A stretch of 64,000 bases of DNA from a virus (IMGVR_UViG_3300046170_000505), one strand, 5' to 3'; positions 1 through 17,839 are shown, counted from the stretch's first letter. Program-made: numbers and translations. The notes: a model not told the origin generated them from the letters alone.

Positions 1-2
1 AC

Positions 3-332
3 AATCTCGCTTTCCATACTCATCCTTCTTGCGACAACGCAGTTATGGCTCAACTAAACATGGGCGACATAACTATTTCAGTTGTAGCAAACATTGCTAA
101 TGGGGATAGTCTTTATGGTCATCTTGACGATGACGAGTACGAAGTTGCAATGTGGAAAAAAGGAAGTGCAGACATGATTCCTCTTGGTGTTGGAGACGAT
201 GTCCTTGCAAGGCAAACTCCCGCTCAAGTCAGCAAGCTCATGAGAGACGCTCAACTTGACGGAGATGCTTGGGTTGATCTTCTCAGAAAGTTAAGAAAAG
301 ACTTTCGTGACGACTTAGGACTTGACGACTAA
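3..332 (+). CDS. hypothetical early phage protein (probably 5'-truncated by the window edge)
   Basis: ORF 45..332; the frame stays open upstream to position 3. Confidence 0.6.
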   Translation, partial: NLAFHTHPSCDNAVMAQLNMGDITISVVANIANGDSLYGHLDDDEYEVAMWKKGSADMIPLGVGDDVLARQTPAQVSKLMRDAQLDGDAWVDLLRKLRKDFRDDLGLDD

Positions 333-356
333 TCACAACTAAACTATATTACTATT

Positions 357-617
357 ATGACAGAAGAACAAAGAATCGCCATTATTAAAAACGCAGTCCT
401 TGCTAGTCAAGGTTTCCAAAGTGCATCTGTTGACGAATTTGTTGCAGAAGTAAAAACGGAAGATATTGTCACTAGGCATGGATTACTTGATGCCCAAAAA
501 GAAGATGTAGAAGATGAGAAGCAATTTCTTAACTCTGATTCAGCAGAAGACATCGAAGAAGAAGATCAAGACATGGGTGTTGTCAGCGATCAAATGAAAG
601 GAGTCTACCAATCATGA
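357..617 (+). CDS. acidic hypothetical protein
   Basis: 86-aa ORF, co-oriented with neighbours, short gaps. Confidence 0.65.
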   Translation: MTEEQRIAIIKNAVLASQGFQSASVDEFVAEVKTEDIVTRHGLLDAQKEDVEDEKQFLNSDSAEDIEEEDQDMGVVSDQMKGVYQS

Positions 618-691
618 GTTGGGATATTATATTATTCTTGCCTTGGCTTTTTGTTTTTTACATCATGTGGGAGGACTTAAAACATGGATGA
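614..691 (+). CDS. tiny membrane peptide (MSWDIILFLPWLFVFYIMWEDLKHG)
   Basis: ATGA overlap with the upstream stop; fills the gap to the next gene; hydrophobic. Confidence 0.4.
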   Translation: MSWDIILFLPWLFVFYIMWEDLKHG

Positions 692-905
692 TCCTTTTTT
701 TATAGCTACTACAATCGGTGGCAATAGTATGTTCGCTCTTATGGAAGTCGAAGGTAACGAAAAACCAAGACAAGGCGAACACAAGATTTCTGAATCTTGC
801 TTAGAAGCAAACTTAGCCACGGGCAGATTCACCGATATAACAGAACAAGCGACAGGTGCATACGGCAAGCTATATGTCTTGACAGAAGAAATGCCTCAAG
901 AATAA
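684..905 (+). CDS. hypothetical protein
   Basis: 73-aa ORF converging on repeat R1. Confidence 0.6.
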   Translation: MDDPFFIATTIGGNSMFALMEVEGNEKPRQGEHKISESCLEANLATGRFTDITEQATGAYGKLYVLTEEMPQE

Positions 906-966
906 ATAATAAATAAACAAATAGCAAATAATAATATAGCCCGCGATCTTCGATTTTTTAGTTTCT

Positions 967-1037
967 CGTAAGTCGTTGATATTCAACGACTTGCGCGGGC
1001 CTGGCCGCCCTAAGTGCTTGGCACTCAAGGACTTACG
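967..1037. repeat. double-palindrome repeat R1
   Basis: CGTAAGTCGTTGA-tat-TCAACGACTTGCG + CGGGCCTGGCCGCCC + TAAGTGCTTG..CAAGGACTTACG. Confidence 0.95.
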
Positions 1038-1040
1038 CGA

Positions 1041-1373
1041 TTAAATGAGATCGTAGTATTGTGGAGAGGTATCGACCTTATGGCTTATGGTGTCAATCTC
1101 CAATTCCACTCCAGCGAGCTGTTTCTTAGCTTCGTCTATTAATTCTTTTGGAGGGATTATTGGAAATCCATTTTTGCCCCATGCTTCCACCGATTCGATT
1201 TGGTCAAAGTATCCGACGATATGAGTTTCTGAAACTTGATCGCCATAAAGGGATTCGGTCTCATCTCTCCAAAAAGAGCAGGTCAGGATCATCTCAGAGA
1301 TTTCAGCGTTATCAATCGAAACGAAGAAAAGATCTTCGCTTGTATCTATATCATCAATGTTTATTTTATTCAT
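1041..1373 (-). CDS. cassette A hypothetical acidic protein
   Basis: 110-aa ORF between R1 and R2 with its own promoter. Confidence 0.8.
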   Translation of the reverse strand: MNKINIDDIDTSEDLFFVSIDNAEISEMILTCSFWRDETESLYGDQVSETHIVGYFDQIESVEAWGKNGFPIIPPKELIDEAKKQLAGVELEIDTISHKVDTSPQYYDLI

Positions 1374-1378
1374 ACCTT

Positions 1379-1407
1379 AATATCGCTTATATTTTGGCTT
1401 ATGTCAA
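1379..1407 (-). promoter_or_regulatory. sigma70-type early promoter (leaderless)
   Basis: TTGACA-17nt-GATATT-5nt-ATG, A-tract upstream. Confidence 0.75.
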
Positions 1408-1435
1408 ACTTTTTGTTTGTTATTTTGAAAGTTTA

Positions 1436-1506
1436 CATAAACTATTGATATTCAACGACTTACGCGGGCCTGGCCGCCATAAGCGGCTGATAGCCAAAGA
1501 CTTACG
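1436..1506. repeat. double-palindrome repeat R2
   Basis: ..TTGATATTCAACGACTTACGCGGGCCTGGCCGCCATAAGCGGCTGATAGCCAAAGACTTACG. Confidence 0.95.
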
Positions 1507-1738
1507 ACAAATCCATTACAAGCTCGTCTAATCGTGGGTAGTCAAGCCCACTATCATTCCAGGCTACCCCATCAGGAGTTTGATAGCCTATTGAGCTATC
1601 ACCTGAAACCTCTCTTAACGAGTCAACAAAGACATCGTAAGAAGTGCAGTCTTTAGCAAAGCTGTAAAGACCTTCGTCGTTTTGTATCCATAATGCCACG
1701 TTCCAGGTGGCTCGATTTTTCCAGCCGTTATAGCTCAT
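1502..1738 (-). CDS. conserved small phage protein (YNGWxNxxTWNVALW motif)
   Basis: N-terminal motif common in phage hypothetical proteins; stop codon is the terminal TAA of R2. Confidence 0.8.
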   Translation of the reverse strand: MSYNGWKNRATWNVALWIQNDEGLYSFAKDCTSYDVFVDSLREVSGDSSIGYQTPDGVAWNDSGLDYPRLDELVMDLS

Positions 1739-1863
1739 AGTTTCGAGGTGTTGTGCCCCGCCTTCCTCATAGAGTGAAGGGCTTCAGGGCGAGTCATATT
1801 GAATCGGGACATAAGATACATAAGCAAGTCATGACCCGTGAGTTGTTGATTTCTGTCTGTCAT
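1735..1863 (-). CDS. 42-aa hypothetical protein (MTDRNQQLTGHDLLMYLMSRF...)
   Basis: Read by hand; fills the gap between two genes with an ATGA overlap. Confidence 0.6.
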   Translation of the reverse strand: MTDRNQQLTGHDLLMYLMSRFNMTRPEALHSMRKAGHNTSKL

Positions 1864-1864
1864 A

Positions 1865-2050
1865 TTAAGCGAATGCAAGCCAAAGAGCAAGGGCGTCGAT
1901 TTGCTCTTGAACGAGTTCCTTTTCTTGTTCTGCGTTGATGATTAGTTGTTGAGAGCGAATGCAACCTTCGTTTGCGATATCAGACTCTAGGTCGATAATT
2001 TGCTGAAGCTCGTTAATTCTGTCGAATAGGTTTCTAATTTTTTCTTTCAT
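1865..2050 (-). CDS. small coiled-coil protein, first gene of cassette B
   Basis: 61-aa ORF directly behind a promoter. Confidence 0.75.
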   Translation of the reverse strand: MKEKIRNLFDRINELQQIIDLESDIANEGCIRSQQLIINAEQEKELVQEQIDALALWLAFA

Positions 2051-2056
2051 AAGTAT

Positions 2057-2085
2057 AAAGTACCATAGTAAGTAAAGCTTGTAAA
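2057..2085 (-). promoter_or_regulatory. sigma70-type early promoter
   Basis: TTTACA-17nt-TACTTT-6nt-ATG. Confidence 0.65.
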
Positions 2086-2176
2086 GTAAATTCGCACTTT
2101 TTTTGCAATTAATTGAAATACGGGCAAATAAGTTTTACCCCAGGCGGGCATCGATGCACAAAACTTTTAGTTTTTT

Positions 2177-2244
2177 GTAAGTCATTGCGTATCAACGACT
2201 TACGCGGGCCTGGGCCGCCTAAGCGGCTGATATTCAACGAGTTA
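2177..2244. repeat. double-palindrome repeat R3
   Basis: GTAAGTCATTGCGTATCAACGACTTACGCGGGCCTGGGCCGCCTAAGCGGCTGATATTCAACGAGTTA. Confidence 0.95.
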
Positions 2245-2434
2245 GGGAATCTTTTTCGAAAGCGTCAATCATTTGACTCCACTCCCAGAGGTTGCCGTCT
2301 GGATCTTCGTAAAAGCTATACCCAGATTTGGCGTGAGTCAGGATGTGCGAAAATCCTATATTTTCCGCCCAGGCCTGAAAGTCAGCGTCGCGTTTTTCTT
2401 CGTCTAATTGGTCTTGTGTTATTGTTATCTTCAT
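2234..2434 (-). CDS. cassette C hypothetical protein
   Basis: 66-aa ORF; stop lies inside R3. Confidence 0.75.
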   Translation of the reverse strand: MKITITQDQLDEEKRDADFQAWAENIGFSHILTHAKSGYSFYEDPDGNLWEWSQMIDAFEKDSLTR

Positions 2435-2439
2435 ACCCT

Positions 2440-2468
2440 AATGTACCTCTATCCTGGGCGAAAGTCAA
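2440..2468 (-). promoter_or_regulatory. sigma70-type early promoter
   Basis: TTGACT-17nt-TACATT-5nt-ATG. Confidence 0.75.
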
Positions 2469-2494
2469 GAAAAGATTTTACTTTTTTATCTTTC

Positions 2495-2563
2495 CGTAAA
2501 CCCTTGCGTATCAACGACTTACGCGGGCTTGGGCTCCATAAGCCCTTGATTGTCAAGAACTTA
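2495..2563. repeat. double-palindrome repeat R4
   Basis: CGTAAACCCTTGCGTATCAACGACTTACGCGGGCTTGGGCTCCATAAGCCCTTGATTGTCAAGAACTTA. Confidence 0.9.
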
Positions 2564-2753
2564 GGGGAACAAACACATCGGGCTTACGATCCTCTGGCAA
2601 TGGCCAGCCTTTGAATTCCTCGCCATCGAGGTCTTCGAGCCTGAACATGATGCCCTCGAGCATTTCCTCAAGCTGAGCATTTTTTTTCTCCAGATCAACG
2701 ATCCTGCTGAGCAGGAGCTGACTCGTGTGTGTGTATATTTTATTTTCTATCAT
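2553..2753 (-). CDS. cassette D coiled-coil protein (start revised to ATG at 2753)
   Basis: Promoter position favours MIENKIYTH... over the TTG at 2783; stop lies inside R4. Confidence 0.7.
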   Translation of the reverse strand: MIENKIYTHTSQLLLSRIVDLEKKNAQLEEMLEGIMFRLEDLDGEEFKGWPLPEDRKPDVFVPLSS

Positions 2754-2759
2754 ACCCTT

Positions 2760-2788
2760 ATAGTACGACAGAATTTTGCTCAAGTCAA
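2760..2788 (-). promoter_or_regulatory. sigma70-type early promoter
   Basis: TTGACT-17nt-TACTAT-6nt-ATG. Confidence 0.75.
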
Positions 2789-2818
2789 ACTTTTTTTGAA
2801 TTATTTTGCAAGTTTTTC

Positions 2819-2885
2819 TAAGCCGTTGTGTATCAACGACTTACGCGGGCCTGGCCGCCATAAGCGGCTGATACTCAACGACTTA
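2819..2885. repeat. double-palindrome repeat R5
   Basis: TAAGCCGTTGTGTATCAACGACTTACGCGGGCCTGGCCGCCATAAGCGGCTGATACTCAACGACTTA. Confidence 0.95.
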
Positions 2886-2887
2886 TG

Positions 2888-3127
2888 CTAAAAGTCGTAT
2901 TGGTCATGATAGCCATAGTCATAATCCTGATATCGGTCAAAGCTGGGCTCTTCATGGTTACGGTGTACTTCTGACATCTCAGCAGGCTCGTCGCTATTCC
3001 TGACATCAGTGAGTATTTTCTCAAGACGAGCAAGACGGGCAAGCTCTTTTTCACGAGCTTCAAACTCGACATCAGTGATGCCGTTGGCGTGGGCGAGGCG
3101 AGTGAGAGAATCATTTTCATTTTCCAT
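2888..3127 (-). CDS. cassette E hypothetical protein
   Basis: 79-aa ORF; stop 2 nt from R5. Confidence 0.75.
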   Translation of the reverse strand: MENENDSLTRLAHANGITDVEFEAREKELARLARLEKILTDVRNSDEPAEMSEVHRNHEEPSFDRYQDYDYGYHDQYDF

Positions 3128-3133
3128 ATATAT

Positions 3134-3162
3134 AACATAAAGGCATTGCTAACCTGTGTCAA
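3134..3162 (-). promoter_or_regulatory. sigma70-type early promoter
   Basis: TTGACA-17nt-TATGTT-6nt-ATG. Confidence 0.75.
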
Positions 3163-3235
3163 ATCAATTCAACAATAAACGAAATTGGACCAAATAAAAG
3201 GCTTGCGGGCCTCAGCTTAGACATACGATATTTTT

Positions 3236-3304
3236 CGTAAGTCATTGTATATCAACGACTTACGCGGGCCTGGCCGCTATAAGCGGCTGATAGTCAACGA
3301 CTTA
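3236..3304. repeat. double-palindrome repeat R6
   Basis: CGTAAGTCATTGTATATCAACGACTTACGCGGGCCTGGCCGCTATAAGCGGCTGATAGTCAACGACTTA. Confidence 0.95.
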
Positions 3305-3454
3305 TGACTTTATTATTCGATATCGCCTTACGCGACCACTATAGGCAAGGCGGGCTTTAAGTAAAGCTTCAGCCTCACGCTTAAACATCGGAACTGTTTC
3401 GGCTACCCATCCGATCTTAGAAGAAAAGGGGATTGATTCTAGTATGTATTTCAT
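3302..3454 (-). CDS. 50-aa basic hypothetical protein (MKYILESIPFSSKIGW...)
   Basis: Read by hand; starts 4 nt after the upstream stop and ends on the terminal TAA of R6. Confidence 0.65.
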   Translation of the reverse strand: MKYILESIPFSSKIGWVAETVPMFKREAEALLKARLAYSGRVRRYRIIKS

Positions 3455-3458
3455 TTTA

Positions 3459-3653
3459 TTAGTCAACTAAGATTAAAGGTTTGGGTAGTGGAGTGTGGGC
3501 GAGATAAGCCTCCAACTCATTAACCTCCGATTGTGCTATCCTATCAAGATCGGCTTGAGCCGCGACGCACTGCATCATAGCTGAACCTGAGCCATTACTT
3601 GCGGCTTCTAGGTTGTCATTAATTATTTGTTGTAATCTTTGTTTTTCTGTCAT
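3459..3653 (-). CDS. cassette F hypothetical protein
   Basis: 64-aa ORF behind a promoter. Confidence 0.75.
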   Translation of the reverse strand: MTEKQRLQQIINDNLEAASNGSGSAMMQCVAAQADLDRIAQSEVNELEAYLAHTPLPKPLILVD

Positions 3654-3659
3654 AAGTAT

Positions 3660-3688
3660 AAACTAAGGGAATTTTTGTTGAATTGCAA
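3660..3688 (-). promoter_or_regulatory. sigma70-type early promoter
   Basis: TTGCAA-17nt-TAGTTT-6nt-ATG. Confidence 0.65.
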
Positions 3689-3719
3689 TCTTTTTTTTCA
3701 ACTATTTTGCAGGTTTTCT

Positions 3720-3786
3720 TAAGCCGTTGCGTACCAACGACTTACGCGGGCCTGGCCGCCATAAGCGGCTGATAGTCAACGACTTA
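3720..3786. repeat. double-palindrome repeat R7
   Basis: TAAGCCGTTGCGTACCAACGACTTACGCGGGCCTGGCCGCCATAAGCGGCTGATAGTCAACGACTTA. Confidence 0.95.
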
Positions 3787-4098
3787 GAAGATTAAAGGTA
3801 AGTCATTGTTTGCGTGTGACATGACGCAAAACCAATCGCTTGGATTTATTGCGTTGCCGTTAAGCATGGGTACGAAGTCTTTTTGATATACCCCCAAGCC
3901 TGTTATGCCGTTGACTCTTTCCCTAGTGGTAGGGGTATTCCAACCTGCAAGCGAAGCTTTAATTAACCCGCTAGAGTCACGCTTCACAATGGCGTTGCCA
4001 TGTAGCCAAACGGTTTGCCCGTCTGTCTCGGTGTTGCCGACTTTTTTAGATTTGCCTTGTTCAAAGGCTTGTTTAATTTGTTGTGTCACTTTTCTCAT
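3784..4098 (-). CDS. conserved small phage protein (LHGNAI...GWNTPTTRERVN)
   Basis: 104-aa ORF with a motif recurrent in phage hypothetical proteins; stop is the terminal TAA of R7. Confidence 0.8.
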   Translation of the reverse strand: MRKVTQQIKQAFEQGKSKKVGNTETDGQTVWLHGNAIVKRDSSGLIKASLAGWNTPTTRERVNGITGLGVYQKDFVPMLNGNAINPSDWFCVMSHANNDLPLIF

Positions 4099-4152
4099 GT
4101 TATTTGTTTGCGTAAATGGTTGCGATTATTATTCCTATGATTAAGGATGTGA

Positions 4153-4497
4153 TCATGGATGCACCCCATGGTCTAAGAGTTGAACTGCCTCGTAAACCGA
4201 GCATTTGAGATCATCGCAGATATCTGCGAGTTTTTCCTCTCTTGCTTCGGCACGAGATTGACGATAACGGGTTACCTTGCAAAAGCGAGGATCTGCCTCT
4301 GCACCTGCCATCTCTTTAAGTTCGGAGAAAAGATCCCAAGAAACAATTCCTTGTTTGCAAAAGTTGTATGCACACTGCTTGCGTGATACCCCCTGAATGT
4401 CGAAGATGTGCCGTGCCATCTTATCGTTGAAAACGCTCAAGCTCGCTTGAATCAGCTTGTCTGAGATTTTTGAGAATGTTATATGTATTAGTTTCAT
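4153..4497 (-). CDS. cassette G hypothetical protein
   Basis: 114-aa ORF behind a promoter. Confidence 0.75.
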   Translation of the reverse strand: MKLIHITFSKISDKLIQASLSVFNDKMARHIFDIQGVSRKQCAYNFCKQGIVSWDLFSELKEMAGAEADPRFCKVTRYRQSRAEAREEKLADICDDLKCSVYEAVQLLDHGVHP

Positions 4498-4503
4498 AAT
4501 TAT

Positions 4504-4532
4504 ACTATCGCATATGCAGTGCCTTCTGTCAA
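4504..4532 (-). promoter_or_regulatory. sigma70-type early promoter
   Basis: TTGACA-17nt-GATAGT-6nt-ATG. Confidence 0.65.
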
Positions 4533-4572
4533 GCTATTTGAAAATTTTCTTTGAATTATTTTGCTTATTTCT

Positions 4573-4640
4573 GTAAGTTGTTGTTTATCAACGACTTACG
4601 CAGGCCAGGCTCGCCTAACCCCTTGACTATCAAGGATTTA
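4573..4640. repeat. double-palindrome repeat R8 (more diverged)
   Basis: GTAAGTTGTTGTTTATCAACGACTTACGCAGGCCAGGCTCGCCTAACCCCTTGACTATCAAGGATTTA. Confidence 0.9.
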
Positions 4641-4660
4641 GGAGATTTAGTTTTGTATTA

Positions 4661-4921
4661 CTACGCTCTCTGAAAGTCAGGGTATCTCCCCATAAGGTTC
4701 AAAAAATCGTGGAGTGATGGTTCGGTAATCCTACCGTCATCATCCTTCATGCCGTCAATCAAATCCTGATTTGTGACATTTTCGGCAGTCTCAACGATTT
4801 GATCCCAAGTCCAAACATTGTCGCCAACATCTTCCCACAGGGAAATTCCCGACTTTTCGTCGCGTGAAAATTCAAGAAGTCCATTGACCCCTATAACATG
4901 TTTAATCTTAACAGCTAACAT
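4661..4921 (-). CDS. cassette H hypothetical protein (start revised to ATG at 4921)
   Basis: MLAVKIKHVIG... lies 6 nt after a -10 box. Confidence 0.7.
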   Translation of the reverse strand: MLAVKIKHVIGVNGLLEFSRDEKSGISLWEDVGDNVWTWDQIVETAENVTNQDLIDGMKDDDGRITEPSLHDFLNLMGRYPDFQRA

Positions 4922-4927
4922 ACCTAT

Positions 4928-4956
4928 AAGGTAGCATACCCACCAAGCAATTGCAA
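4928..4956 (-). promoter_or_regulatory. sigma70-type early promoter
   Basis: TTGCAA-17nt-TACCTT-6nt-ATG. Confidence 0.65.
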
Positions 4957-5166
4957 CACATTTTTTGCCCAATTATTTGGAAATATTGAAATAGGGTGCC
5001 CACTTTTTTGAATTATAACAAATAGCGTTTATTCACAATAGGCTGGGGGGTGGTATTTTTCATTCTCATTTTAGAATATTACGTTTTCATATATTGGCGC
5101 ATCCAAAAAAAATCGGGGGGGTAAATTTAAAAAAAGGTTTTTTTTATTTAAATCCCGTGTGTTTCT

Positions 5167-5176
5167 GTGTAATATA
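5167..5176 (+). promoter_or_regulatory. putative phage late promoter motif GTGTAATATA
   Basis: Same motif recurs shortly upstream of at least 10 gene starts. Confidence 0.65.
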
Positions 5177-5183
5177 AAATAAC

Positions 5184-5990
5184 ATGAAAGAACTAGATTT
5201 CAGTCAAGCTATAATCCAAAGATTGCAAGATCAAATTGGTAACGAAAAAGAAATAACGATAGAAGCCTGGGCTGCCGAAGAAAAAAGCGGCAAAAAGCTT
5301 AACAAACCATTTAGAACTCCAGGTGGGCCTAAAAAGTTTTCTGTTTATGTAAAAAACGAAAAAGGCAACGTTGTAAAAGTAAGCTTCGGGGATCCGAACA
5401 TGTCAATTAAACGCGATGACCCTGCTCGTCGTAAAAGTTTTCGCGCTAGACACGGCTGCGATAACCCTGGGCCAAAAACTAAAGCTAAATATTGGAGCTG
5501 CAAGATGTGGAGCAAAAAGAGTGTCACCAAAATGACCAAAGGTGAAGAGTCTTCGTTTGAAGAAGCAGAAGAAGAAATGGTTGCTTTCTTGGATGAATCT
5601 GAAAGCAAAAAAGGGTTATGGGAAAATATCCGCGACAAAAAGAAAAGAGAGGGCAAAAACTACAAACCTGCAAAACCAGGCGACAAAGATTATCCAGACC
5701 CTAAAGCTCTAAAGAAAGCTCAAAAATCTTCAGAAGAAAAAAAATCAAAAGCTGATAAAAAAGAAGAAAAAAAAGACGGTGAATCAGGCTTAACAGACGA
5801 GCAGAAAAAACTTCCTGATTTTATTAAAAAGAACTTGCTTAAGAAAAAGAAAGCAAAAGCTGAAGACAAAGAAGACAAAGACGACAGCGGTTTAACCGAC
5901 AAACAAAAGAAACTTCCCGACTTTATTAAAAAAAATTTAAAAAACAAAAAAAAGACAGACAAAAAAGAAGGCAAAGAAGAAAAGAAGTAA
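5184..5990 (+). CDS. Lys-rich protein with a conserved phage domain (KLNKPFRTPGGPKKFSVYVK...RARHxC...YWSC); possible internal head/DNA-binding protein
   Basis: Recognisable motif from large marine phages; duplicated GLTDxQKKLPDFIKKNL; very basic C-terminus. Confidence 0.7.
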   Translation: MKELDFSQAIIQRLQDQIGNEKEITIEAWAAEEKSGKKLNKPFRTPGGPKKFSVYVKNEKGNVVKVSFGDPNMSIKRDDPARRKSFRARHGCDNPGPKTKAKYWSCKMWSKKSVTKMTKGEESSFEEAEEEMVAFLDESESKKGLWENIRDKKKREGKNYKPAKPGDKDYPDPKALKKAQKSSEEKKSKADKKEEKKDGESGLTDEQKKLPDFIKKNLLKKKKAKAEDKEDKDDSGLTDKQKKLPDFIKKNLKNKKKTDKKEGKEEKK

Positions 5991-6008
5991 TTTTTGTAAT
6001 GTATCATT

Positions 6009-6260
6009 ATGCCCCGAAAAAATATAATCGAAGAGTTAAAAGTCGGGGCTCCTGAAATTCCTACAAATACTTGCTCTTATATTGATTTTGTTTTAGAAAT
6101 TCTTAAAGAAATTAAAGAGGAATCACCATCCCATCAAATTGGAGAAAAAATAGATTTAATAGAAAGCCACATGGAGTATCTTAGGTCTGCCAATCAGACT
6201 CTAAGAGACGGAGGGGAGTATTGGTACCATCAATGCAAATCTCAAGCTTCCAAAAAATAA
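6009..6260 (+). CDS. hypothetical protein
   Basis: 83-aa ORF. Confidence 0.7.
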   Translation: MPRKNIIEELKVGAPEIPTNTCSYIDFVLEILKEIKEESPSHQIGEKIDLIESHMEYLRSANQTLRDGGEYWYHQCKSQASKK

Positions 6261-6297
6261 GAATTGAATTTATAAATACTAATCAGTATAATTTATT

Positions 6298-7992
6298 ATG
6301 TCAGAAAATACTGAAAATGTAAAAAGAGTTAGAGATCTTGAAGATTTTGATCCAGCCGTTCCACTTTCCGATCAAGACTACTTAATTGTTGCAACTAATG
6401 AGGATGCAAATAACGACGGAACAAACGAAAGAGTCCCCTTAACAAAAAAAGCTAAGATTTCTGAAGCTGTACAAGCTGTGAATAGAGCTGTAGCCGCAAA
6501 AAGAGAATCTCAACCTGAGACTATTGAAATTGTGGATGAAAACGGAAACAATACCACAATACCAAATCCGTTGAAAAATATCACTACAGAAGTTGATGGC
6601 AACGGTGTTGAAGTAGACATTACCCCAGTAACAGCTGAAAATCTTGACGGATTAGTTGATCCTGGAAGCGGGCTTGAGGTAAAAACTATATGTAGAAATG
6701 AAGATTTTGAGGTTGTAGATTGCGGCGACCCTTCAGTAAAATACAAAACTAAAAAATTAAGTTTAGCCACATCCGAGGAATCAAAAACTATAACGATTCA
6801 CGTTAATACAAATGATGGAGTAGAGTACGAAAAATCTGGAAAAGCTTTAATCAATGGCGCTTTAAGTGAAAAATTTAAAAGACTAAGAGACGCATTTCAA
6901 TATATCCAAAATGATATTGGAGATTCAGATACAACAATAAACATTCATATAGAAACTGATACAGACGAAGGAGAAATTAACCACGTTAATAACGTTTATC
7001 ATACAAGAAAAAACGCAGAAATTAATGGTTGCTATATTTACATCTATGGCAGTGATGCGCAATGGCGACAAGGGGCAAATCCGCCAAAAGTAAAAATAAA
7101 AACCAAAAACCTACCTTCAACAAACAATGCTTATGTACCGTTTTGGTTTAACGCTTACCAAATAAGAATTAATTTCGTTCATTTTTGCACTGACCTGGAT
7201 GATAATAAAAATATTCATACTTGCTTTCGAGCTCATAAAAATTGTTTACTAGAATTTTTTGGTTGCAAATTTAGCGTAAGAGGCTCTACTCACATTTATA
7301 TTGAAGCGAGCAGGGGGGCAACGGTTGAAATTCAAAATAAAAGTGATGGCATTAATGATTTAGATTACAGAGATAAAAATTTCTGGGAACCAGCTATAGA
7401 ATTTGATTTTCACGATAGAGGAAGTGCTGCGACTTCTGGTCCAGCAGCTGCAGGCGATCCTTTTTATTGCGACTATCTTTTTGCTGCGGATACTGGTGGG
7501 GTATTTAGATTCCCAGAATATGGAAGTCACATTCCATATAGTGATACTCAAAAAACAAACTTCCAATCTAGAATTCACTTTTGTTCGGACAAAGTTGTAA
7601 TCGGGGCCGCTCTTTTTGGTCTCGAGGGTAATTGCGTTATGGATATTGTTGGGCTTTTCACCACTAGCCTTAACAAAAATTTTACTGCTACGAAAATACC
7701 GTACTTTTTAAGAGCAAGCGCTTTTAATGCAATAGGAATCAAGACCGCCTATCAACCAGGTGGAACAGTTGCAAATGGATATGGAGAAGTATTCGCCAGT
7801 AATGGAGTTGTACCTGGAAACGTTTTCGTGAATCCTACAACTCAATATGATATAGCTGTAAAAGAAGACGTTGATTATGTTAAACAATCAGGTGTTAGTC
7901 AATCACTCACCCTTATAACCAAAGTAAAAATGACACCAAATGATTCTGCTGAGACTGACTTAGAAGACTATTGGGATCCCCATAACTTTTAA
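6298..7992 (+). CDS. putative tail fibre/spike-like virion protein
   Basis: N-terminal KRVRDL..PLSDQDYLIVATNEDA shared with the next gene; beta-rich C-terminus; TTGAAT-17-TATAAT promoter upstream. Confidence 0.55.
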   Translation: MSENTENVKRVRDLEDFDPAVPLSDQDYLIVATNEDANNDGTNERVPLTKKAKISEAVQAVNRAVAAKRESQPETIEIVDENGNNTTIPNPLKNITTEVDGNGVEVDITPVTAENLDGLVDPGSGLEVKTICRNEDFEVVDCGDPSVKYKTKKLSLATSEESKTITIHVNTNDGVEYEKSGKALINGALSEKFKRLRDAFQYIQNDIGDSDTTINIHIETDTDEGEINHVNNVYHTRKNAEINGCYIYIYGSDAQWRQGANPPKVKIKTKNLPSTNNAYVPFWFNAYQIRINFVHFCTDLDDNKNIHTCFRAHKNCLLEFFGCKFSVRGSTHIYIEASRGATVEIQNKSDGINDLDYRDKNFWEPAIEFDFHDRGSAATSGPAAAGDPFYCDYLFAADTGGVFRFPEYGSHIPYSDTQKTNFQSRIHFCSDKVVIGAALFGLEGNCVMDIVGLFTTSLNKNFTATKIPYFLRASAFNAIGIKTAYQPGGTVANGYGEVFASNGVVPGNVFVNPTTQYDIAVKEDVDYVKQSGVSQSLTLITKVKMTPNDSAETDLEDYWDPHNF

Positions 7993-8010
7993 TAAAACAT
8001 TTATTTTATT

Positions 8011-9246
8011 ATGTCAGATCAAGAAAATGTAAAAAAAATCAGAGAGCTCGATGGCTTTGATGATTTGACCCCTCTTTCTGAAACAGATTATTTAATAGTA
8101 GCAACAAATGAAGACGCCGACGGAGACGGCTTAAAAGAAAGGCTTCCTTTTACCAAAAAAGCTACCATTTCCCAAGCCGTAGAAGTATACAATAACTCTA
8201 TAGCTCAACCTCCTGCAGTTGACCCAGGGACTGGCGAACCTGCTGCTCCAGATCCAGAAGAACAACCAGGATATGAAGAAACCGATCCAGCTACAGGCAA
8301 AACCGTAAAAAGAATTACCACTCCAGTAAACGGTGGCAACTTAGATAGCTTTCTTGATCCTGATGGCGGGTTAACAACTGTTGATTTTTGTCAAGACGAA
8401 TCCAAAGCTGAAGTTGCATGTGACGGAAGTCAAGGGGAAGTAAAATACAAAACTAAAAAAATAAGCTCTAACGGATTTAGTGGATTTGATGTTGAATTTT
8501 TGCATGGATTCCCTAAAACCAAGAGGGTTTACCGAGGGGGAATATTAAGCAGTGTCTCACATGGAATAGGAAAATTTTTAGAGCATTTTGCTCCCGCAAG
8601 AGGCGGCACAAACGATACGGCTAAGGCAATTAATGATGAAGAGACAGATCCACCAGTATCACTACCGATTACCGCTGAAGATCATAGCCATAATCACACA
8701 AGCAATATTGTTAATAGATTTTTTGTAGGCTTAACTTCTAACACATCAAGTAATTTCGGAATGATTATTTGGGCAAACGATTCAGGTGAGTCAAACTTTA
8801 GTGACGACCAGTCTGGAGCTTGGTACTTTTCCCTTAAATGGGGCTGGCAATTTATTAACCTGCCAAGCTTGCGATACAGCGATCAATTTGTTGAAAATTA
8901 TTGGATTTATGATTCTCAAAATCTTGGGTGGTACTGGTTAAGTATGGATATTTATCCTTGGATTTACTTTAATAGCGATTTACTTGGTAACGGATCGTCA
9001 ACTGGTTGGGGCTATGCAAATAATGCCACAACAAATGATACAGACGGAATTATACAAACAATAGGGCCAGTAGATCTGGGAACAAGCATTTACTTTAAAG
9101 ACCAGGGGTGGTACGCAAAAAGCAGTTTAAACGCCCCTAACCCTACCGTAGATACTAACGCTCCATTAACAGATCCAGGTCCACAACCAACAAGATCAGT
9201 AACGTCAATCTCTCCAGAACTGTTAGCAAACGAACCTGCAAGATGA
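8011..9246 (+). CDS. putative fibre-like virion protein with a Trp/Tyr-rich domain
   Basis: N-terminus paralogous to 6298..7992; WIYDSQNLGWYWLSMDIYPWIYF motif. Confidence 0.55.
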   Translation: MSDQENVKKIRELDGFDDLTPLSETDYLIVATNEDADGDGLKERLPFTKKATISQAVEVYNNSIAQPPAVDPGTGEPAAPDPEEQPGYEETDPATGKTVKRITTPVNGGNLDSFLDPDGGLTTVDFCQDESKAEVACDGSQGEVKYKTKKISSNGFSGFDVEFLHGFPKTKRVYRGGILSSVSHGIGKFLEHFAPARGGTNDTAKAINDEETDPPVSLPITAEDHSHNHTSNIVNRFFVGLTSNTSSNFGMIIWANDSGESNFSDDQSGAWYFSLKWGWQFINLPSLRYSDQFVENYWIYDSQNLGWYWLSMDIYPWIYFNSDLLGNGSSTGWGYANNATTNDTDGIIQTIGPVDLGTSIYFKDQGWYAKSSLNAPNPTVDTNAPLTDPGPQPTRSVTSISPELLANEPAR

Positions 9247-9401
9247 ACCTAACAAAAGACCAATTAGAAAAAATCGAAAAAGAAGCAATGAAATCTCTAC
9301 CTAAGGCAAAAAAAGATTTCTTAAAAGCACACGGCGTAAAGAACGAAAAAGAATTTACGGAGCGCTATAAAAGTAAAGTTGCTAATTCTAAAAAGAAGTA
9401 A
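9243..9401 (+). CDS. 52-aa basic hypothetical protein
   Basis: ATGA overlap with the upstream gene; MNLTKDQLEKIEKEAMK... Confidence 0.55.
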   Translation: MNLTKDQLEKIEKEAMKSLPKAKKDFLKAHGVKNEKEFTERYKSKVANSKKK

Positions 9402-9439
9402 ATACTTTAGAGGGTAGCTCTAGTAAAGCGGTAAGCTAT

Positions 9440-10744
9440 CTAAGAGTTATCTGCCACCCATTGAGAAGCTGCCGCTAAAGCCTCAGATGTTGAAGTAGCC
9501 ATCGCATTATTAATCGTAGTTTGGCTCAAAGTAGTTCTACGGCAGCCCAAGCCCTCCGTACCTCCACCTGCAGTAAATACTACGTTTCCATCATCTTCTA
9601 AATCTATCACATTATAAACTGCTTTTGTGATAGAATAGCATCTATTGACTCCCGATTGCGTCGAATTTTGAGTTGCTGGAGCTCCAGCAACAACTTGATA
9701 TCTTTGAGCGGCAGGAGCAGCATCTGCCTCTGGCATAACAGCCCACTGAGCATTTTGCCTAACATACAATTGTCCATCTAAGGGAGCTTCCTGAATTCCA
9801 GAGTTAGGTGCGTCATATATTGCTGAGGCCCTAAACTTAGGATGACTTGTTACTACATCGATAAAATCATTTAAAGAAATTTTAAAAGCGCCATCAGCCC
9901 TAGAGACAATAAAAATATCGCTGTCTTCCAACTGTATAGCTTCTGTTAGTTGATCTATTGTTGTTCTGCAATTTTGAGGAATAGCTGAACAGTCAGTAGC
10001 TGTCTGAGTAGGCGTTTCAGTAGGCGTTTCAGTAGGCGTTTCAGTAGGCGTTTCTTCAGGCTCAGGGGTTTCAGTGGGAGGATCTGGAGAAGTGGTTTCA
10101 GTATCGTTGCCAGAATCACTGCCAGAATCACTGCTAGAATCACTGCTAGAATCACTGCTAGAAAGTGAGCTTGCTACAGAGAATCTATTTTTAACCCAGC
10201 CTTCGAGAATTAAGCTATATCCAAGGTAGAGCATTAACTCACGTATTGCCTCTGCATACGTTGGTTGGTCGTTAAAAGGTTGTGCAGAGCTGTTTTGAGA
10301 AATATTTGCAACACCACCACCTAGACTAACTCCGTATTGAGTTATTCCTAAGTCATACAGTTCGGATTCCGTGATAGCCTCATAAGAATCGTTTGGAAAG
10401 GTCCAGGCATTTGCCCCGTTTTCTCCAGCACCTCTTGTGAAAAAATGAGGGGTAGGCATGTTAAATACGTCACCTGGATTTTGGTAGTTTAACCAATCCG
10501 TTGATCCTCCGTTATACCAAGCTTCTGAGTTCCTGGGTATTTTTCCTAAAAAGCTCATGGACGCTTCAGTACTCCAGATACTACCATCAGTTTTTAAATA
10601 CCCATACGCCGTCGTAGGGTTTCTTACCAATTCTCCATTGCTTCCGTTTGCGTCCAAAACACCAATTGATGTTAATTCAGACAAAATAACTTTATCTCCA
10701 TCATCTAAGTTTGCCCACCAGGCACTTGGATCATTCCATTCCAT
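9440..10744 (-). CDS. virion/fibre-like protein with a low-complexity linker
   Basis: EAPLDGQLYVRQNAQW fibre-type motif; SSDS and PTET repeats. Confidence 0.55.
   Translation of the reverse strand: MEWNDPSAWWANLDDGDKVILSELTSIGVLDANGSNGELVRNPTTAYGYLKTDGSIWSTEASMSFLGKIPRNSEAWYNGGSTDWLNYQNPGDVFNMPTPHFFTRGAGENGANAWTFPNDSYEAITESELYDLGITQYGVSLGGGVANISQNSSAQPFNDQPTYAEAIRELMLYLGYSLILEGWVKNRFSVASSLSSSDSSSDSSSDSGSDSGNDTETTSPDPPTETPEPEETPTETPTETPTETPTQTATDCSAIPQNCRTTIDQLTEAIQLEDSDIFIVSRADGAFKISLNDFIDVVTSHPKFRASAIYDAPNSGIQEAPLDGQLYVRQNAQWAVMPEADAAPAAQRYQVVAGAPATQNSTQSGVNRCYSITKAVYNVIDLEDDGNVVFTAGGGTEGLGCRRTTLSQTTINNAMATSTSEALAAASQWVADNS
10008..10161. repeat. in-frame 12-bp tandem repeats (GTAGGCGTTTCA x~4; CTAGAATCACTG x~4)
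   Basis: Directly visible; encode PTET and SSDS linkers. Confidence 0.85.
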
Positions 10745-10935
10745 TATTTCTTTTTCTTGTTGATTTCTTTTTTTAGTTGAGCGTATACTTTCTCAACCTC
10801 ACCTTCTTTAAGTAAATCAGAAGGAGCCTTGCTGCCCAAAGCTTTATTTGCAGTTTTTAACCACTGCGTAGCGCTATAAGAAGGCATACTCTTTGCCAAC
10901 AGATGAAGAACGTCGTATTTAGATAAATTAGGCAT
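10744..10935 (-). CDS. stand-alone Xre/MbcA/ParS-type antitoxin C-terminal (toxin-binding) domain protein
   Basis: ATQWLKTANKALGSKAPSDLL...G.VEKV...L matches the AxxWLxxPNxALGGxxPxxLL signature. Confidence 0.65.
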   Translation of the reverse strand: MPNLSKYDVLHLLAKSMPSYSATQWLKTANKALGSKAPSDLLKEGEVEKVYAQLKKEINKKKK

Positions 10936-10940
10936 TTATA

Positions 10941-10971
10941 TATTATATTACACCAAAGTCAGTGTATTTAT
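10941..10971. promoter_or_regulatory. divergent pair of GTGTA late-type motifs
   Basis: GTGTAATATA on minus (10953->10944) and GTGTATTTAT on plus (10962-10971) between divergent genes. Confidence 0.6.
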
Positions 10972-10992
10972 ATTTATAACCAATAAAAAATT

Positions 10993-11715
10993 ATGGGACG
11001 TAAAAAATCTACCCCTGACATAGAGTCAATCGCAGAAAATTCCTTAAGATCTAAAATAATAGTAAAAGGAAAAGAATTAACAGAAAAACAAAAGACTTTT
11101 TTAAAAATTGCATGCGACAAAGAAACAAGTGTTATGTTTGTAAACGGACCTGCGGGTTCGACAAAAACTTATATGGCAGTTTTTGCTGCACTAAGGCTTT
11201 TGCAAAAAAACTATGACCTTGACCTACTTTATGTAAGAAGCGTGATAGAAAGCGCGGATAAAGGCTTAGGAGCCTTGCCAGGGACTCTTGAGGAAAAGTT
11301 TAATCCTTACATGGCTCCCCTCGAAGACAAACTGACAGAATTGTTACCCAAAACAAGTACGGTAAAAAGTGACCTATTAGATTCTGGGAGAATACAGGCT
11401 ATGCCAATAAACTTTTTAAGAGGGGCAAATTGGATAGATAAAATTGTAGTAGCTGATGAATCTCAAAATTTCACATTCAAAGAATTGACCACCCTAATAA
11501 CCAGAATTGGAGAAAATAGTAAGTTATTTATTTGTGGTGACATTATGCAAAGCGACATCAATGGAAGAAGTGGCTTTAAAGATATGATTAATTTATTCAA
11601 AGATTCAGAAAGTAAATCCAAAGGAATACATTATTTTCAATTTAATGAAGATGATATCTTTAGAAGTGAGATACTTAAGTATATAATAAAGAAACTTAAA
11701 ACTTGTAATAATTAA
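10993..11715 (+). CDS. phoH: PhoH-like ATPase
   Basis: GPAGSTKT Walker A, LGALPGTLEEK, FLRG, DESQN, TRIGENSK, GDIMQSD. Confidence 0.92.
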   Translation: MGRKKSTPDIESIAENSLRSKIIVKGKELTEKQKTFLKIACDKETSVMFVNGPAGSTKTYMAVFAALRLLQKNYDLDLLYVRSVIESADKGLGALPGTLEEKFNPYMAPLEDKLTELLPKTSTVKSDLLDSGRIQAMPINFLRGANWIDKIVVADESQNFTFKELTTLITRIGENSKLFICGDIMQSDINGRSGFKDMINLFKDSESKSKGIHYFQFNEDDIFRSEILKYIIKKLKTCNN

Positions 11716-11717
11716 TT

Positions 11718-12341: not shown

Positions 12342-12380
12342 AATTGATTTTTAATACATTTATTTTTAATATAAAGGTAT

Positions 12381-17777: not shown

Positions 17778-17825
17778 AGTTAAAAGTTGACTTTAGACTT
17801 TAAAAGTAGACTTTAGTCGACTTTG

Positions 17826-17835
17826 GTGTAATATT
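17826..17835 (+). promoter_or_regulatory. late promoter motif GTGTAATATT
   Basis: 4 nt before the portal ATG. Confidence 0.65.
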
Positions 17836-17839
17836 ATTT

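What the first reader, a model, noticed from the sequence alone, without database searches (positions are those of the whole stretch)
967..4956. Integron-like array of self-contained early gene cassettes separated by a 68-bp double-palindrome repeat
Seen in sequence: eight copies of TAAGTCGTTG-N5-CAACGACTTA + CGCGGGCCTGGCCGCCA + a second degenerate copy of the same palindrome, spaced ~250-800 bp apart. Each interval holds 1-3 small unrelated ORFs in one orientation. On the minus strand the order is repeat, A-tract, -35, 17 nt, -10, ATG, ORF(s), repeat. Established knowledge: integron attC arrays and the promoter/stem-loop (PeSL) elements of T4-type phages shuffle small ORFs. Inference: the repeats are recombination sites, or protein-binding or terminator elements, that let the phage gain, lose and reorder early host-takeover genes. 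No recombinase is visible in this window.
Basis: partly seen in the sequence, partly recalled or inferred. Interest (0 to 1): 0.85.

Follow-up and report, generated by a model that had tools for sequence, protein, structure and literature searches.

The report
Repeat fences between phage early genes
Eight copies of a 67-bp repeat separate small, self-promoted early-gene cassettes in an uncultured ~200-kb phage; the repeat looks like a pair of protein-binding sites on double-stranded DNA rather than an integron-type recombination site, and related phages have reshuffled the cassettes at these repeats and at the promoters beside them.

Summary
Eight 67-bp units lie at 969-4640 and nowhere else in the window. 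Each sits between a stop codon and an A-rich tract followed by a sigma70-type promoter. The -10 box lies 5-6 nt before the ATG, so the mRNAs are probably leaderless.

The integron reading fails:
- every cassette has its own promoter;
- no tyrosine recombinase, serine recombinase or Y1 transposase was found in the window or in five related records, two of them near-complete;
- the "palindromes" show no compensatory variation.

Only TAA, TTG, CAA and TTA are invariant, at fixed spacing. That is the pattern of a dimer site on duplex DNA, and it coincides with a symmetric form of the IHF core (CAA-N4-TT). Two such 25-bp modules sit 42 bp apart around a GC-rich, self-complementary core.

The same module occurs:
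- in about 27 related IMG/VR phage fragments;
- next to tRNA and integrase junctions;
- upstream of a sigma54 promoter;
- 14-22 times per genome in Akkermansia and Fibrobacter;
- in IncW-type oriTs.

Relatives carry the same gene families in different orders, with homology breaking at units or promoters. The closest known system is therefore the PeSL cassette of T4-type phages. Protein binding was not tested. The scan had already noted this element in an overlapping window (15 copies over 13 kb).

The parts
969..1035 (-). Unit 1 (last in the direction of transcription): two 25-bp modules plus a 17-bp GC centre. It follows ORF 1041-1373 and has no promoter after it; beyond it lie convergent + strand genes.
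1438..1504 (-). Unit 2. The TAA of its first arm is the stop codon of ORF 1502-1738.
2178..2244 (-). Unit 3. The stop codon of ORF 2234-2434 lies inside it.
2497..2563 (-). Unit 4, a variant with a diverged centre and first module.
2819..2885 (-). Unit 5.
3238..3304 (-). Unit 6.
3720..3786 (-). Unit 7.
4574..4640 (-). Unit 8 (first in the direction of transcription), the most diverged copy.
4928..4956 (-). Promoter-like site of the first cassette: TTGCAA, 17 nt, TACCTT, then 6 nt to the ATG at 4921.
4504..4532 (-). Promoter-like site: TTGACA, 17 nt, GATAGT, then 6 nt to the ATG at 4497.
3660..3688 (-). Promoter-like site: TTGCAA, 17 nt, TAGTTT, then 6 nt to the ATG at 3653.
3134..3162 (-). Promoter-like site: TTGACA, 17 nt, TATGTT, then 6 nt to the ATG at 3127.
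2760..2788 (-). Promoter-like site: TTGACT, 17 nt, TACTAT, then 6 nt to the ATG at 2753.
2440..2468 (-). Promoter-like site: TTGACT, 17 nt, TACATT, then 5 nt to the ATG at 2434.
2057..2085 (-). Promoter-like site: TTTACA, 17 nt, TACTTT, then 6 nt to the ATG at 2050.
1379..1407 (-). Promoter-like site: TTGACA, 17 nt, GATATT, then 5 nt to the ATG at 1373.
3198..3213 (-). Conventional terminator-like GC hairpin followed by a T run, between unit 6 and the next promoter. A weaker one lies at 2136-2150.
4661..4921 (-). Cassette 1 ORF (86 aa; family F3, found at varying positions in relatives).
3784..4497 (-). Cassette 2: a 114-aa ORF (4153-4497) and a 104-aa Kyano_Gp96-like ORF (3784-4098). The second is 65-70% identical in 10 relatives and is always the last gene before a unit.
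3302..3653 (-). Cassette 3: a 64-aa ORF (3459-3653; 65-92% identical in 7 related loci; duplicated in L001) and a ~50-aa ORF whose start is uncertain.
2888..3127 (-). Cassette 4: a 79-aa ORF, present in only 3 relatives.
2553..2753 (-). Cassette 5: a 66-aa ORF with no homologue in any fetched locus.
2234..2434 (-). Cassette 6: a 66-aa ORF with no homologue in any fetched locus.
1502..2050 (-). Cassette 7: a 61-aa ORF, a 42-aa ORF and a 78-aa DUF7249 ORF (1502-1738).
1041..1373 (-). Cassette 8: a 110-aa ORF with a homologue only in L016.

Best explanation
The 67-bp unit is the boundary half of a portable regulatory cassette. The cassette runs: stop codon, unit, A-rich UP-like tract, sigma70/sigmaA-type promoter, leaderless ATG. 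The unit acts as double-stranded DNA, not as an RNA or DNA hairpin. It is two inverted-repeat binding sites for a dimeric sequence-specific protein. Each site reads TAA-N4-TTG(A)-N3-(T)CAA-N4-TTA. The two sites are 42 bp (four helical turns) apart around a rigid, GC-rich, self-complementary core. The invariant letters and their spacing are those of the IHF core WATCAA-N4-TTR made symmetric. The same module turns up in classical IHF settings. The most likely ligand is therefore a host DNABII (IHF/HU-type) protein that bends the DNA sharply on both sides of the GC core. Such a folded nucleoprotein upstream of each early promoter would set promoter geometry, stimulating it as IHF does at lambda pL or Mu Pe. 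It would also insulate each cassette from its neighbour. Because unit plus promoter (about 140 bp) is repeated 8-15 times in one orientation, ordinary homologous recombination between copies deletes, duplicates, transposes and exchanges cassettes, as shown for PeSLs of T4-type phages. Shown here: the anatomy, the invariant letters, the lack of covariation, the distribution, the shuffling among relatives and the absence of recombinases. Inferred: protein binding, the protein's identity, the effect on transcription and the recombination pathway.
For: 1) In modules taken as partners of a well-matched module, positions 2-3 (AA), 9 (T), 16-17 (CA) and 23-24 (TT) are 100% conserved, and positions 1 and 10 are 97% conserved. 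The N4 blocks (59-91%) and the centre vary. 2) Complementarity in the N4 blocks is no higher than when arms are shuffled among copies: 502 vs 492+-10 over 216 modules. In 58 units it is at or below the shuffled value for local hairpins and for the long hairpin, and the inner arms score 93 vs 127+-6. The loops of the two modules are not complementary either. 3) Module spacing is quantised: 42 bp in 66 units and 48-50 bp in 66 units of other clades. The centres are 75-100% GC and self-complementary (5.6 of 8 pairs vs 3.6 when shuffled), although their sequence differs between clades. 4) 14 of the 16 window modules carry WATCAR-N4-TTR on one strand (consensus as cited in PMC3897727). 5) The same 25-bp palindrome lies directly beside the relaxase hairpin IR2 in the R388 oriT and, in perfect form, in a Bordetella plasmid oriT. 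The R388 relaxosome contains host IHF, which binds oriT specifically (PMC3264647, PMC12117103). The palindrome also lies 17 nt upstream of a perfect sigma54 promoter (L082) and between tRNA 3' ends or fragments and tyrosine integrase genes (L046, L060). It lies in intergenic regions of Akkermansia (22 sites vs 0 in the reversed-pattern control) and Fibrobacter (15 vs 0). 6) The exact palindrome gave 26 stretches (24 different contigs) among GTDB species genomes, against about 0.14 expected. 7) The distance from the promoter-proximal module to the -35 box clusters at 32, 43 and 53 nt (weak, p about 0.03 on distinct values). 8) Two units are followed by a separate conventional hairpin plus T run, so the unit itself is unlikely to be the terminator. 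9) Shuffling: gene families F2, F3, F4, F5, F9, F18, F30 and F36 occur in different cassette combinations in 10 relatives. Homology blocks end 6-8 nt after a unit or in the promoter (L002/L036, L001/L014, L001/L037). A three-gene block is transposed between L001 and L014. Cassettes are duplicated in L001 and L037. 10) PeSL precedent: PMC2839356, PMC4122927.
Against: No binding experiment exists, and no tool here can model protein-DNA binding. The IHF match rests on only about 5-7 conserved letters per half-site, and the AT of WATCAA is only 68-77% conserved. The exact position of the footprinted IHF sites in the R388 oriT was not verified from the literature. The module is not phylum-wide: in a sample of 40 other Verrucomicrobiota genomes, 36 had none and 4 had one. 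Its abundance in bacteria therefore reflects lineage-specific spread, not a universal regulon. No DNABII gene was found in the window or in five related phage records, so the ligand would have to be a host protein, and the host is unknown. RNA folding of the sense strand is much more stable than shuffles for 7 of 8 copies (z -3.4 to -6.8), so an RNA-level role cannot be excluded. Helical phasing is only suggestive, because the copies are related.
Confidence: 0.55

Rival explanations
1. RNA-level element. Transcribed from the minus strand, the unit folds into a long (about 30-bp) or double hairpin. This hairpin ends or attenuates transcription of the upstream cassette, or protects its 3' end from exonucleases, or is an RNase III site, like the stem-loops of PeSLs or the intercistronic sites of T7 early RNA.
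For: The unit sits directly after stop codons. Predicted folds reach -23 to -37 kcal/mol, with z -3.4 to -6.8 for 7 of 8 copies on the sense strand, stronger than on the antisense strand. The GC centre is self-complementary in every clade despite different sequences. PeSL stem-loops are proven terminators (PMC2839356).
Against: There is no U tract after the structure. No compensatory change appears in any stem model, and the inner stem of the long hairpin pairs less than shuffled arms do. In one relative, nearly all modules carry the same two central mismatches (G009). The loops vary while the stem ends are invariant, the opposite of protein-bound RNA hairpins. Two units are followed by a separate canonical terminator. 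The same module occurs in untranscribed or promoter-upstream settings such as oriT, sigma54 upstream regions and divergent intergenic regions. There is no Rfam match.
Confidence: 0.18
2. Operators of a phage-encoded regulator. A phage early or middle protein binds the paired palindromes, looping across four turns, to shut off or time early transcription, as TF1 of SPO1 or other early-gene repressors do.
For: The modules are confined to the early array in the window and to a 10-21-kb region in two near-complete relatives and three fragments. Their architecture is palindromic and operator-like. The array neighbours conserved small genes of unknown function.
Against: The same module occurs 14-22 times in Akkermansia and Fibrobacter chromosomes and in plasmid oriTs, far from any such phage. 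No DNA-binding family was detected in the conserved array genes. The sites lie 32-116 nt upstream of the -35 box, not over the core promoter.
Confidence: 0.12
3. Selfish small mobile repeat (REPIN/MITE-like). It spreads within and between phage and bacterial genomes and has been tolerated or co-opted between genes.
For: It is a composite of inverted palindromes resembling REP doublets. Expansions are lineage-specific in bacteria. A Verrucomicrobiales locus has two modules inside 15-nt terminal inverted repeats, present twice on one contig (L106/L107).
Against: No Y1 (RAYT/IS200) transposase was found in five related phage records. In the phages the unit always has the same polarity and the same place between stop codon and promoter. 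No target-site duplications are evident. REP stems covary, but these do not.
Confidence: 0.06
4. Integron-like site-specific recombination sites (attC analogues) acted on by a dedicated recombinase.
For: The region is an array of small one-orientation cassettes separated by imperfect palindromes of attC-like length. Cassette content varies among relatives.
Against: No tyrosine or serine recombinase was found in the window's scanned ORFs or in five relatives, including genomes 93% and 100% complete. Every cassette has its own promoter. Here the sequence is conserved and the structure is not, the reverse of attC. Breakpoints also fall at promoters.
Confidence: 0.04

Closest known systems
PeSL (promoter-early stem-loop) cassettes of T4-type phages (Arbiol et al. 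2010, PMC2839356; Comeau et al. 2014, PMC4122927)
   Same: Both are a repeated intergenic composite of a palindromic element, an AT-rich tract and a strong sigma70-like early promoter. Both are concentrated in a hyperplastic region of small ORFans. In both, related phages differ by insertions, deletions, replacements and duplications whose junctions lie in the repeats, and no dedicated recombinase is involved.
   Different: The phage is not visibly T4-like. The palindromic part is a fixed 67-bp two-module unit with invariant letters and no stem covariation, so it looks protein-recognised rather than a generic GC stem-loop. It always lies upstream of the A-rich tract. The mRNAs look leaderless and lack a Shine-Dalgarno sequence. 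The same module also occurs in bacterial chromosomes and plasmid oriTs. Terminator activity and mini-circles were not tested.
BIME-1 / RIB-RIP elements of E. coli: REP palindromes flanking an IHF site (PMC3333891)
   Same: Both are extragenic composite palindromic repeats at the ends of transcription units that combine GC-rich palindromes with IHF-type sites. Both are lineage-specific in abundance. Proposed roles are insulation, transcript stabilisation and DNA structuring.
   Different: The order of parts is inverted: here two IHF-like palindromes flank one GC palindrome. There is no GTAG tag, and no RAYT was found. The element forms a regular array in a phage, coupled to promoters.
IHF sites of relaxosomes (F/R1/R388 oriT), att arms and sigma54 promoters
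   Same: They share the core letters CAA-N4-TT(A/G) and the settings. The identical palindrome abuts IR2 in R388-type oriTs, lies beside integrase/tRNA junctions and lies upstream of a sigma54 promoter.
   Different: Classical E. coli IHF sites are asymmetric, with one core plus an A tract. These are symmetric and paired 42 bp apart. Binding was not shown.
Integron attC cassette arrays
   Same: Both are one-orientation arrays of small cassettes separated by imperfect palindromes of 60-70 bp.
   Different: There is no integrase, no attI and no common Pc promoter. Cassettes carry their own promoters and often 2-3 genes. attC conserves structure rather than sequence, whereas this unit conserves sequence rather than structure.

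Membership tests
PeSL-type regulatory cassette | Sigma70-like early promoter within the repeat | tested here: met
   Eight TTGACA-like / 17 nt / TAnnTT-like sites precede the first ATG of each cassette. There are 38 such sites in relatives.
PeSL-type regulatory cassette | AT-rich tract upstream of the -35 box | tested here: met
   A-rich 25-45-nt tracts lie between unit and -35 box.
PeSL-type regulatory cassette | Stem-loop that terminates or attenuates transcription | tested here: inconclusive
   Palindromic and predicted to fold. However, there is no covariation, no U tract, and separate terminators follow two units. Activity cannot be tested here.
PeSL-type regulatory cassette | Located in a hyperplastic region upstream of ORFans | tested here: met
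   Eight of the 10 array ORFs scanned have no Pfam family, and several have no homologue even in close relatives.
PeSL-type regulatory cassette | Indel or replacement junctions between related phages lie at the repeats | tested here: met
   blocks end 6-8 nt after units or in promoters; blocks are transposed and duplicated.
PeSL-type regulatory cassette | Host genome is a T4-type myovirus | tested here: inconclusive
   Of the ten large ORFs scanned, only the large terminase and the tail-fibre protein matched PHROG families. Portal- and capsid-sized ORFs matched none. No T4 core genes were seen. This was not a systematic test.
Integron | IntI-type tyrosine recombinase next to the array | tested here: not met
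   No PF00589 in 47 window ORFs or in 5 related records, two of them at least 93% complete.
Integron | Promoterless cassettes expressed from a common Pc | tested here: not met
   Each cassette has its own promoter-like site abutting its ATG.
Integron | attC: conserved folded structure (R/L boxes, extrahelical bases) with little sequence conservation | tested here: not met
   The reverse holds: the letters are invariant and the arms do not covary.
REP/BIME (REPIN) | Associated RAYT (Y1 transposase) and a GTAG/CGTC-tagged covarying stem | tested here: not met
   No PF01797 in relatives. No tag and no covariation.
IHF/DNABII binding site | Match to WATCAR-N4-TTR | tested here: met
   14 of 16 window modules match. 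CAA-N4-TT is invariant in 97 partner modules.
IHF/DNABII binding site | Occurrence in settings where IHF is known to act | tested here: met
   oriT beside the relaxase hairpin, an integrase/tRNA junction and a position about -55 from a sigma54 promoter.
IHF/DNABII binding site | Specific binding and bending by the protein | not testable with these tools
   Needs gel shift, footprinting or ChIP.
Intrinsic terminator | GC-rich stem directly followed by a U run | tested here: not met
   The scan calls none of the units on the minus strand. A-rich sequence, not T-rich, follows them.

The most novel reading that the evidence does not exclude
The 25-bp module is a symmetric, high-affinity site for a DNABII (IHF/HU-type) protein. 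The 67-bp unit (site, GC clamp, site, four turns apart) is a defined nucleoprotein boundary that both insulates and activates promoters. This portable part has spread among a large family of uncultured phages, integrative elements, conjugative oriTs and some bacterial chromosomes (Akkermansia, Fibrobacter, Bacteroidota). It would be a phage-centred counterpart of the E. coli RIB/BIME-1 elements and a so far undescribed class of mobile promoter-boundary module.
Probability: 0.35. Interest if true: 0.75.

Novelty: new variant of a known kind. Interest (0 to 1): 0.6.

Why it matters
The finding extends the PeSL principle beyond T4-type phages to a large, uncultured phage family. Under that principle, repeated regulatory cassettes both drive early genes and supply the homology that reshuffles them. 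The repeat itself appears to be a specific protein-recognition element shared with host chromosomes, integrative elements and plasmid transfer origins. If the ligand is an IHF/HU-type protein, the unit is a compact natural insulator-plus-activator part. It would also mark how these phages use a host architectural protein in the first minutes of infection. The module could further serve as a sequence tag for finding the early regions of this phage family in metagenomes, and perhaps for narrowing down their hosts.

Tried and rejected
- Rfam, at gathering and at permissive thresholds, gave no family.
- BLAST of the array and of one unit against 50,697 GenBank phages gave no match.
- My first impression was of G-U wobble and compensatory changes in copies 1, 4 and 8, which would favour a sense-strand RNA hairpin. 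I rejected it after arm-shuffling tests on 216 modules and 58 units showed no excess pairing.
- A first partner-conservation analysis mixed wrong offsets and was discarded. It was redone with one offset per clade.
- A full-text search for the motif letters found only chance primer matches.
- A search for an Akkermansia promoter-palindrome paper found nothing.
- The FNR/CRP (TTGAT-N4-ATCAA), hix, dif/Xer, CIRCE and parS geometries were compared from memory and do not fit the 11-3-11 layout.
- The idea that the GC centre holds the only GGCC/CCWGG words of a restriction-purged early region was checked and not borne out for positions 1-18000.
- A phage-encoded DNABII protein was sought and not found.
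- Helical phasing of unit to promoter was tested. The periodogram is broad, so this is only suggestive.

Full report
OBSERVATION. The repeat is real. The repeat finder returns one family of eight copies between 953 and 4650. A 26-nt core matches 7 times with up to 3 mismatches, against 0 in 100 shuffles. Read on the minus strand, which is the sense strand of all genes in the array, each 67-bp unit has three parts: a 25-bp palindromic module, a 17-bp centre of 76-94% G+C, and a second 25-bp module. All 16 modules lie in the array. The other 59 kb holds only five hits, each with two mismatches.

After each unit come an A-rich tract and a TTGACA-like box, then 17 nt and a TAnnTT or GATAnT box. 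Exactly 5-6 nt later comes the ATG of the next ORF. The predicted transcription start therefore falls on or next to the A of the ATG, and there is no Shine-Dalgarno sequence, so the mRNAs are probably leaderless. Internal genes of multi-gene cassettes, and 21 of 30 other genes in the window, also lack Shine-Dalgarno-like sequences. Stop codons of upstream ORFs lie in or directly before the first arm.

THE REPEAT IS NOT PRIVATE TO THIS PHAGE. A 17-nt core found 41 IMG/VR stretches. About 27 of them carry true modules, typically many per contig and in pairs around a GC-rich centre. tblastn shows that these fragments belong to relatives of this phage. They share a large terminase (58-87% identity), the 240-aa ORF at 10993 (54-72%), the gene at 5184 that is divergent from the array (71-79%) and several cassette genes. 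In the two near-complete relatives (93% and 100% by CheckV) and three fragments, the modules are confined to one region of about 10-21 kb.

Module spacing is quantised: 42 bp in 66 units and 48-50 bp in 66 units of more distant clades. The centre differs in sequence between clades but stays GC-rich and self-complementary (5.6 of 8 positions paired, against 3.6 when shuffled).

The exact 25-bp palindrome also gave 26 stretches (24 different contigs) among 185,579 species genomes, where about 0.14 are expected by chance. The hits were in MAGs of Bacteroidota, Fibrobacter, Akkermansia and other Verrucomicrobiota, and Lentisphaerota, plus one mis-binned phage-like contig. The settings were:
- directly after tRNA genes or tRNA 3' fragments, and 55-180 nt upstream of tyrosine integrase genes (L046, L060);
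- 17 nt upstream of a perfect TGGCAC-N5-TTGCA sigma54 promoter (L082);
- in Akkermansia, 22 sites per genome (control 0), all examined sites intergenic and mostly at a fixed 27 or 35 nt from a second palindrome and a -10-like box, upstream of glycosyltransferase, acyltransferase and pyruvyl-transferase genes;
- in Fibrobacter, 15 sites per genome, often beside ordinary terminators.

The spread is lineage-specific. A sample of 40 other Verrucomicrobiota genomes had 0-1 sites each.

BLAST of one unit against plasmids hit the transfer origins of IncW plasmids. In R388 the palindrome abuts the relaxase-binding hairpin IR2, between stbA and trwA. A Bordetella plasmid carries the perfect palindrome at the same place.

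WHAT KIND OF ELEMENT IS IT. I first read the modules as RNA hairpins. The sense strand folds well (z -3.4 to -6.8 for 7 of 8 copies), and some copies seemed compensated. Larger samples reject this.

With a search pattern that leaves the N4 blocks free, Watson-Crick pairing between the arms is 502 of 864. Shuffling arms among copies gives 492+-10. In 58 distinct 67-bp units, pairing is at or below the shuffled value for both local hairpins and for the outer stem of the alternative long hairpin. It is far below for the inner stem (93 vs 127+-6). The loops of the two modules are not complementary. In one relative, nearly all modules carry the same two central mismatches.

What is conserved is a set of letters at fixed spacing: TAA, TTG, CAA and TTA are 97-100% conserved even in modules chosen only as partners of a good module. 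The N4 blocks and the central 3-5 nt vary. Variable centre, invariant half-sites and no covariation are the signature of a dimeric protein site on duplex DNA. They are not the signature of a structural RNA, a cruciform or a folded attC.

Further points argue against a terminator. No U run follows the unit. The terminator scan calls none of the units on the sense strand. Two units are followed by a separate GC hairpin plus T run.

WHICH PROTEIN. This part is inference. The invariant half-site CAA-N4-TT(A), usually preceded by (A/T)AT, is the E. coli IHF core WATCAR-N4-TTR (consensus as quoted in PMC3897727). 14 of the 16 window modules match it fully on one strand. In the palindrome the two A-A steps lie 9 bp apart. 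From my own knowledge of the IHF-DNA crystal structure, that is the spacing of the two proline-induced kinks, so a homodimeric DNABII protein would fit a symmetric site.

The settings in which the module occurs are the classical IHF settings:
- beside the relaxase site in oriT (IHF is a component of the R388 and F/R1 relaxosomes and binds oriT specifically: PMC3264647, PMC12117103);
- in att arms beside integrases;
- about 55 nt upstream of a sigma54 start (compare -42 to -79 in PMC3897727);
- upstream of sigma70 promoters.

All five bacterial genomes examined encode 2-5 DNABII proteins. Neither the window nor five related phage records encode one, so the ligand would be a host protein.

In the phages, the centre of the promoter-proximal module lies 32, 43 or 53 nt upstream of the -35 box in most cases (26 of 38). 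This hints at face-of-helix dependence, but the copies are related and the periodogram is broad.

I could not confirm from the papers held that the palindrome is one of the two footprinted IHF sites of the R388 oriT. Nothing here shows binding.

RECOMBINATION. Clustering all ORFs of 14 arrays shows the same families in different company. The 64-aa family of ORF 3459-3653 is paired with at least five different partners. The Kyano_Gp96-like gene is always last before a unit, but what precedes it varies. Several window cassettes (2234-2434, 2553-2753) have no homologue anywhere.

DNA comparison shows:
- L002 and L036 are collinear up to 6 nt past a unit, then differ for about 700 nt, then resume in the promoter of the next shared gene;
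- L001 and L014 share a 1.7-kb block ending 8 nt past a unit, and a three-gene block sits on opposite sides of it in the two phages;
- L001 has a cassette inserted at the promoter-ATG junction relative to L037;
- one cassette plus unit is duplicated in L037 (94% identity), and one gene is duplicated in L001 (79%).

Junctions thus fall in both kinds of repeat, unit and promoter. No tyrosine recombinase, serine recombinase or Y1 transposase is present in five related records or in the window's scanned ORFs. This is the PeSL pattern, with homologous recombination between repeated regulatory cassettes (PMC2839356, PMC4122927). It is not the integron pattern.

VERDICT. The array is a PeSL-like hyperplastic early region in a phage that is not visibly T4-like. 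The palindromic part is a new, fixed, two-module element that looks like a paired binding site for a DNA-bending protein. Its module is shared with bacterial chromosomes, integrative elements and IncW-type oriTs. I give 0.55 to [quoted passage not shown]. The rivals get 0.18 (RNA hairpin terminator or stabiliser), 0.12 (operator of a phage regulator), 0.06 (selfish REPIN/MITE-like repeat) and 0.04 (integron-like site-specific recombination).

Earlier notes of this scan had already flagged the same element in an overlapping window: 15 copies over 13 kb, so the array continues beyond position 1. They describe the genome as an uncultured phage of about 200 kb. I could not read that part.

Noticed in passing
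window 1-64000: The tetranucleotide CCGG does not occur once in 64 kb, and CCCGGG, GCCGGC, CGGCCG and CCGCGG are also absent. The GC centres of the units read GGCC-A/T-GGCC here, where relatives often have GGCC-C/G-GGCC. This looks like whole-genome avoidance of an HpaII/MspI-type restriction site.
   Followed up: partly
window, upstream of + strand genes at 5184, 6009, 6298, 11718, 17840, 19872: A recurrent TGTAATAT-like box lies 7-12 nt before the ATG, with no Shine-Dalgarno sequence. Only 9 of 30 genes have any SD-like word. This suggests a second promoter class with very short or absent leaders, and a host that does not rely on SD pairing (Bacteroidota-like).
   Followed up: partly
window; exact ORF not located (one of the 37 ORFs in alignment A1): One ORF matches Sigma70_r2 (E 1.8e-4), one matches PhoH (E 8e-46) and one matches the Xre/MbcA/ParS antitoxin C-terminal domain. 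The phage may encode its own sigma factor.
   Followed up: no
L068-L087 (Akkermansia genome G003): About 20 intergenic copies of the 25-bp palindrome sit at a fixed 27 or 35 nt from a second palindrome (TACAGCATT-N4-AATGCTGTA-like) and a -10-like box. They lie upstream of polysaccharide pyruvyl-transferase, GT2, acyltransferase-3 and GH20 genes. This looks like a dispersed promoter module for surface-glycan genes.
   Followed up: partly
L106 and L107 (Verrucomicrobiales genome G005, contig C103, 3.7 kb apart): Two palindrome modules about 58 nt apart are enclosed by 15-nt terminal inverted repeats (TTCTACATTGTTACA and its complement). The arrangement occurs twice on one contig. It could be an invertible segment or a small mobile element.
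   Followed up: no
L088 1513-1537 (R388 oriT) and L089 1513-1539 (Bordetella plasmid BPP5P1): The same palindrome directly abuts the IR2 relaxase hairpin of IncW-type transfer origins. It is probably one of the known IHF sites, but its exact identity was not confirmed.
   Followed up: partly
L099 (Fibrobacter G002:C6:2809-2833): One palindrome lies about 155 nt beyond the 3' end of a DNABII (Bac_DNA_binding) gene at G002:C6:2988-3257. This may be coincidence.
   Followed up: no
window 39121-39732, 25928-26605 and 9993-10061: There are in-frame repeats inside large ORFs: three ~252-264-nt repeats in the 2,439-aa ORF, three ~310-nt repeats in the 673-aa tail-fibre ORF, and a 12-nt tandem array in ORF 9440-10744.
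   Followed up: no
window 3198-3213 and 2136-2150 (minus strand): Ordinary hairpin-plus-T-run terminator-like sites occur only in the two cassette junctions that have long (135-152 nt) unit-to-ATG spacers.
   Followed up: partly
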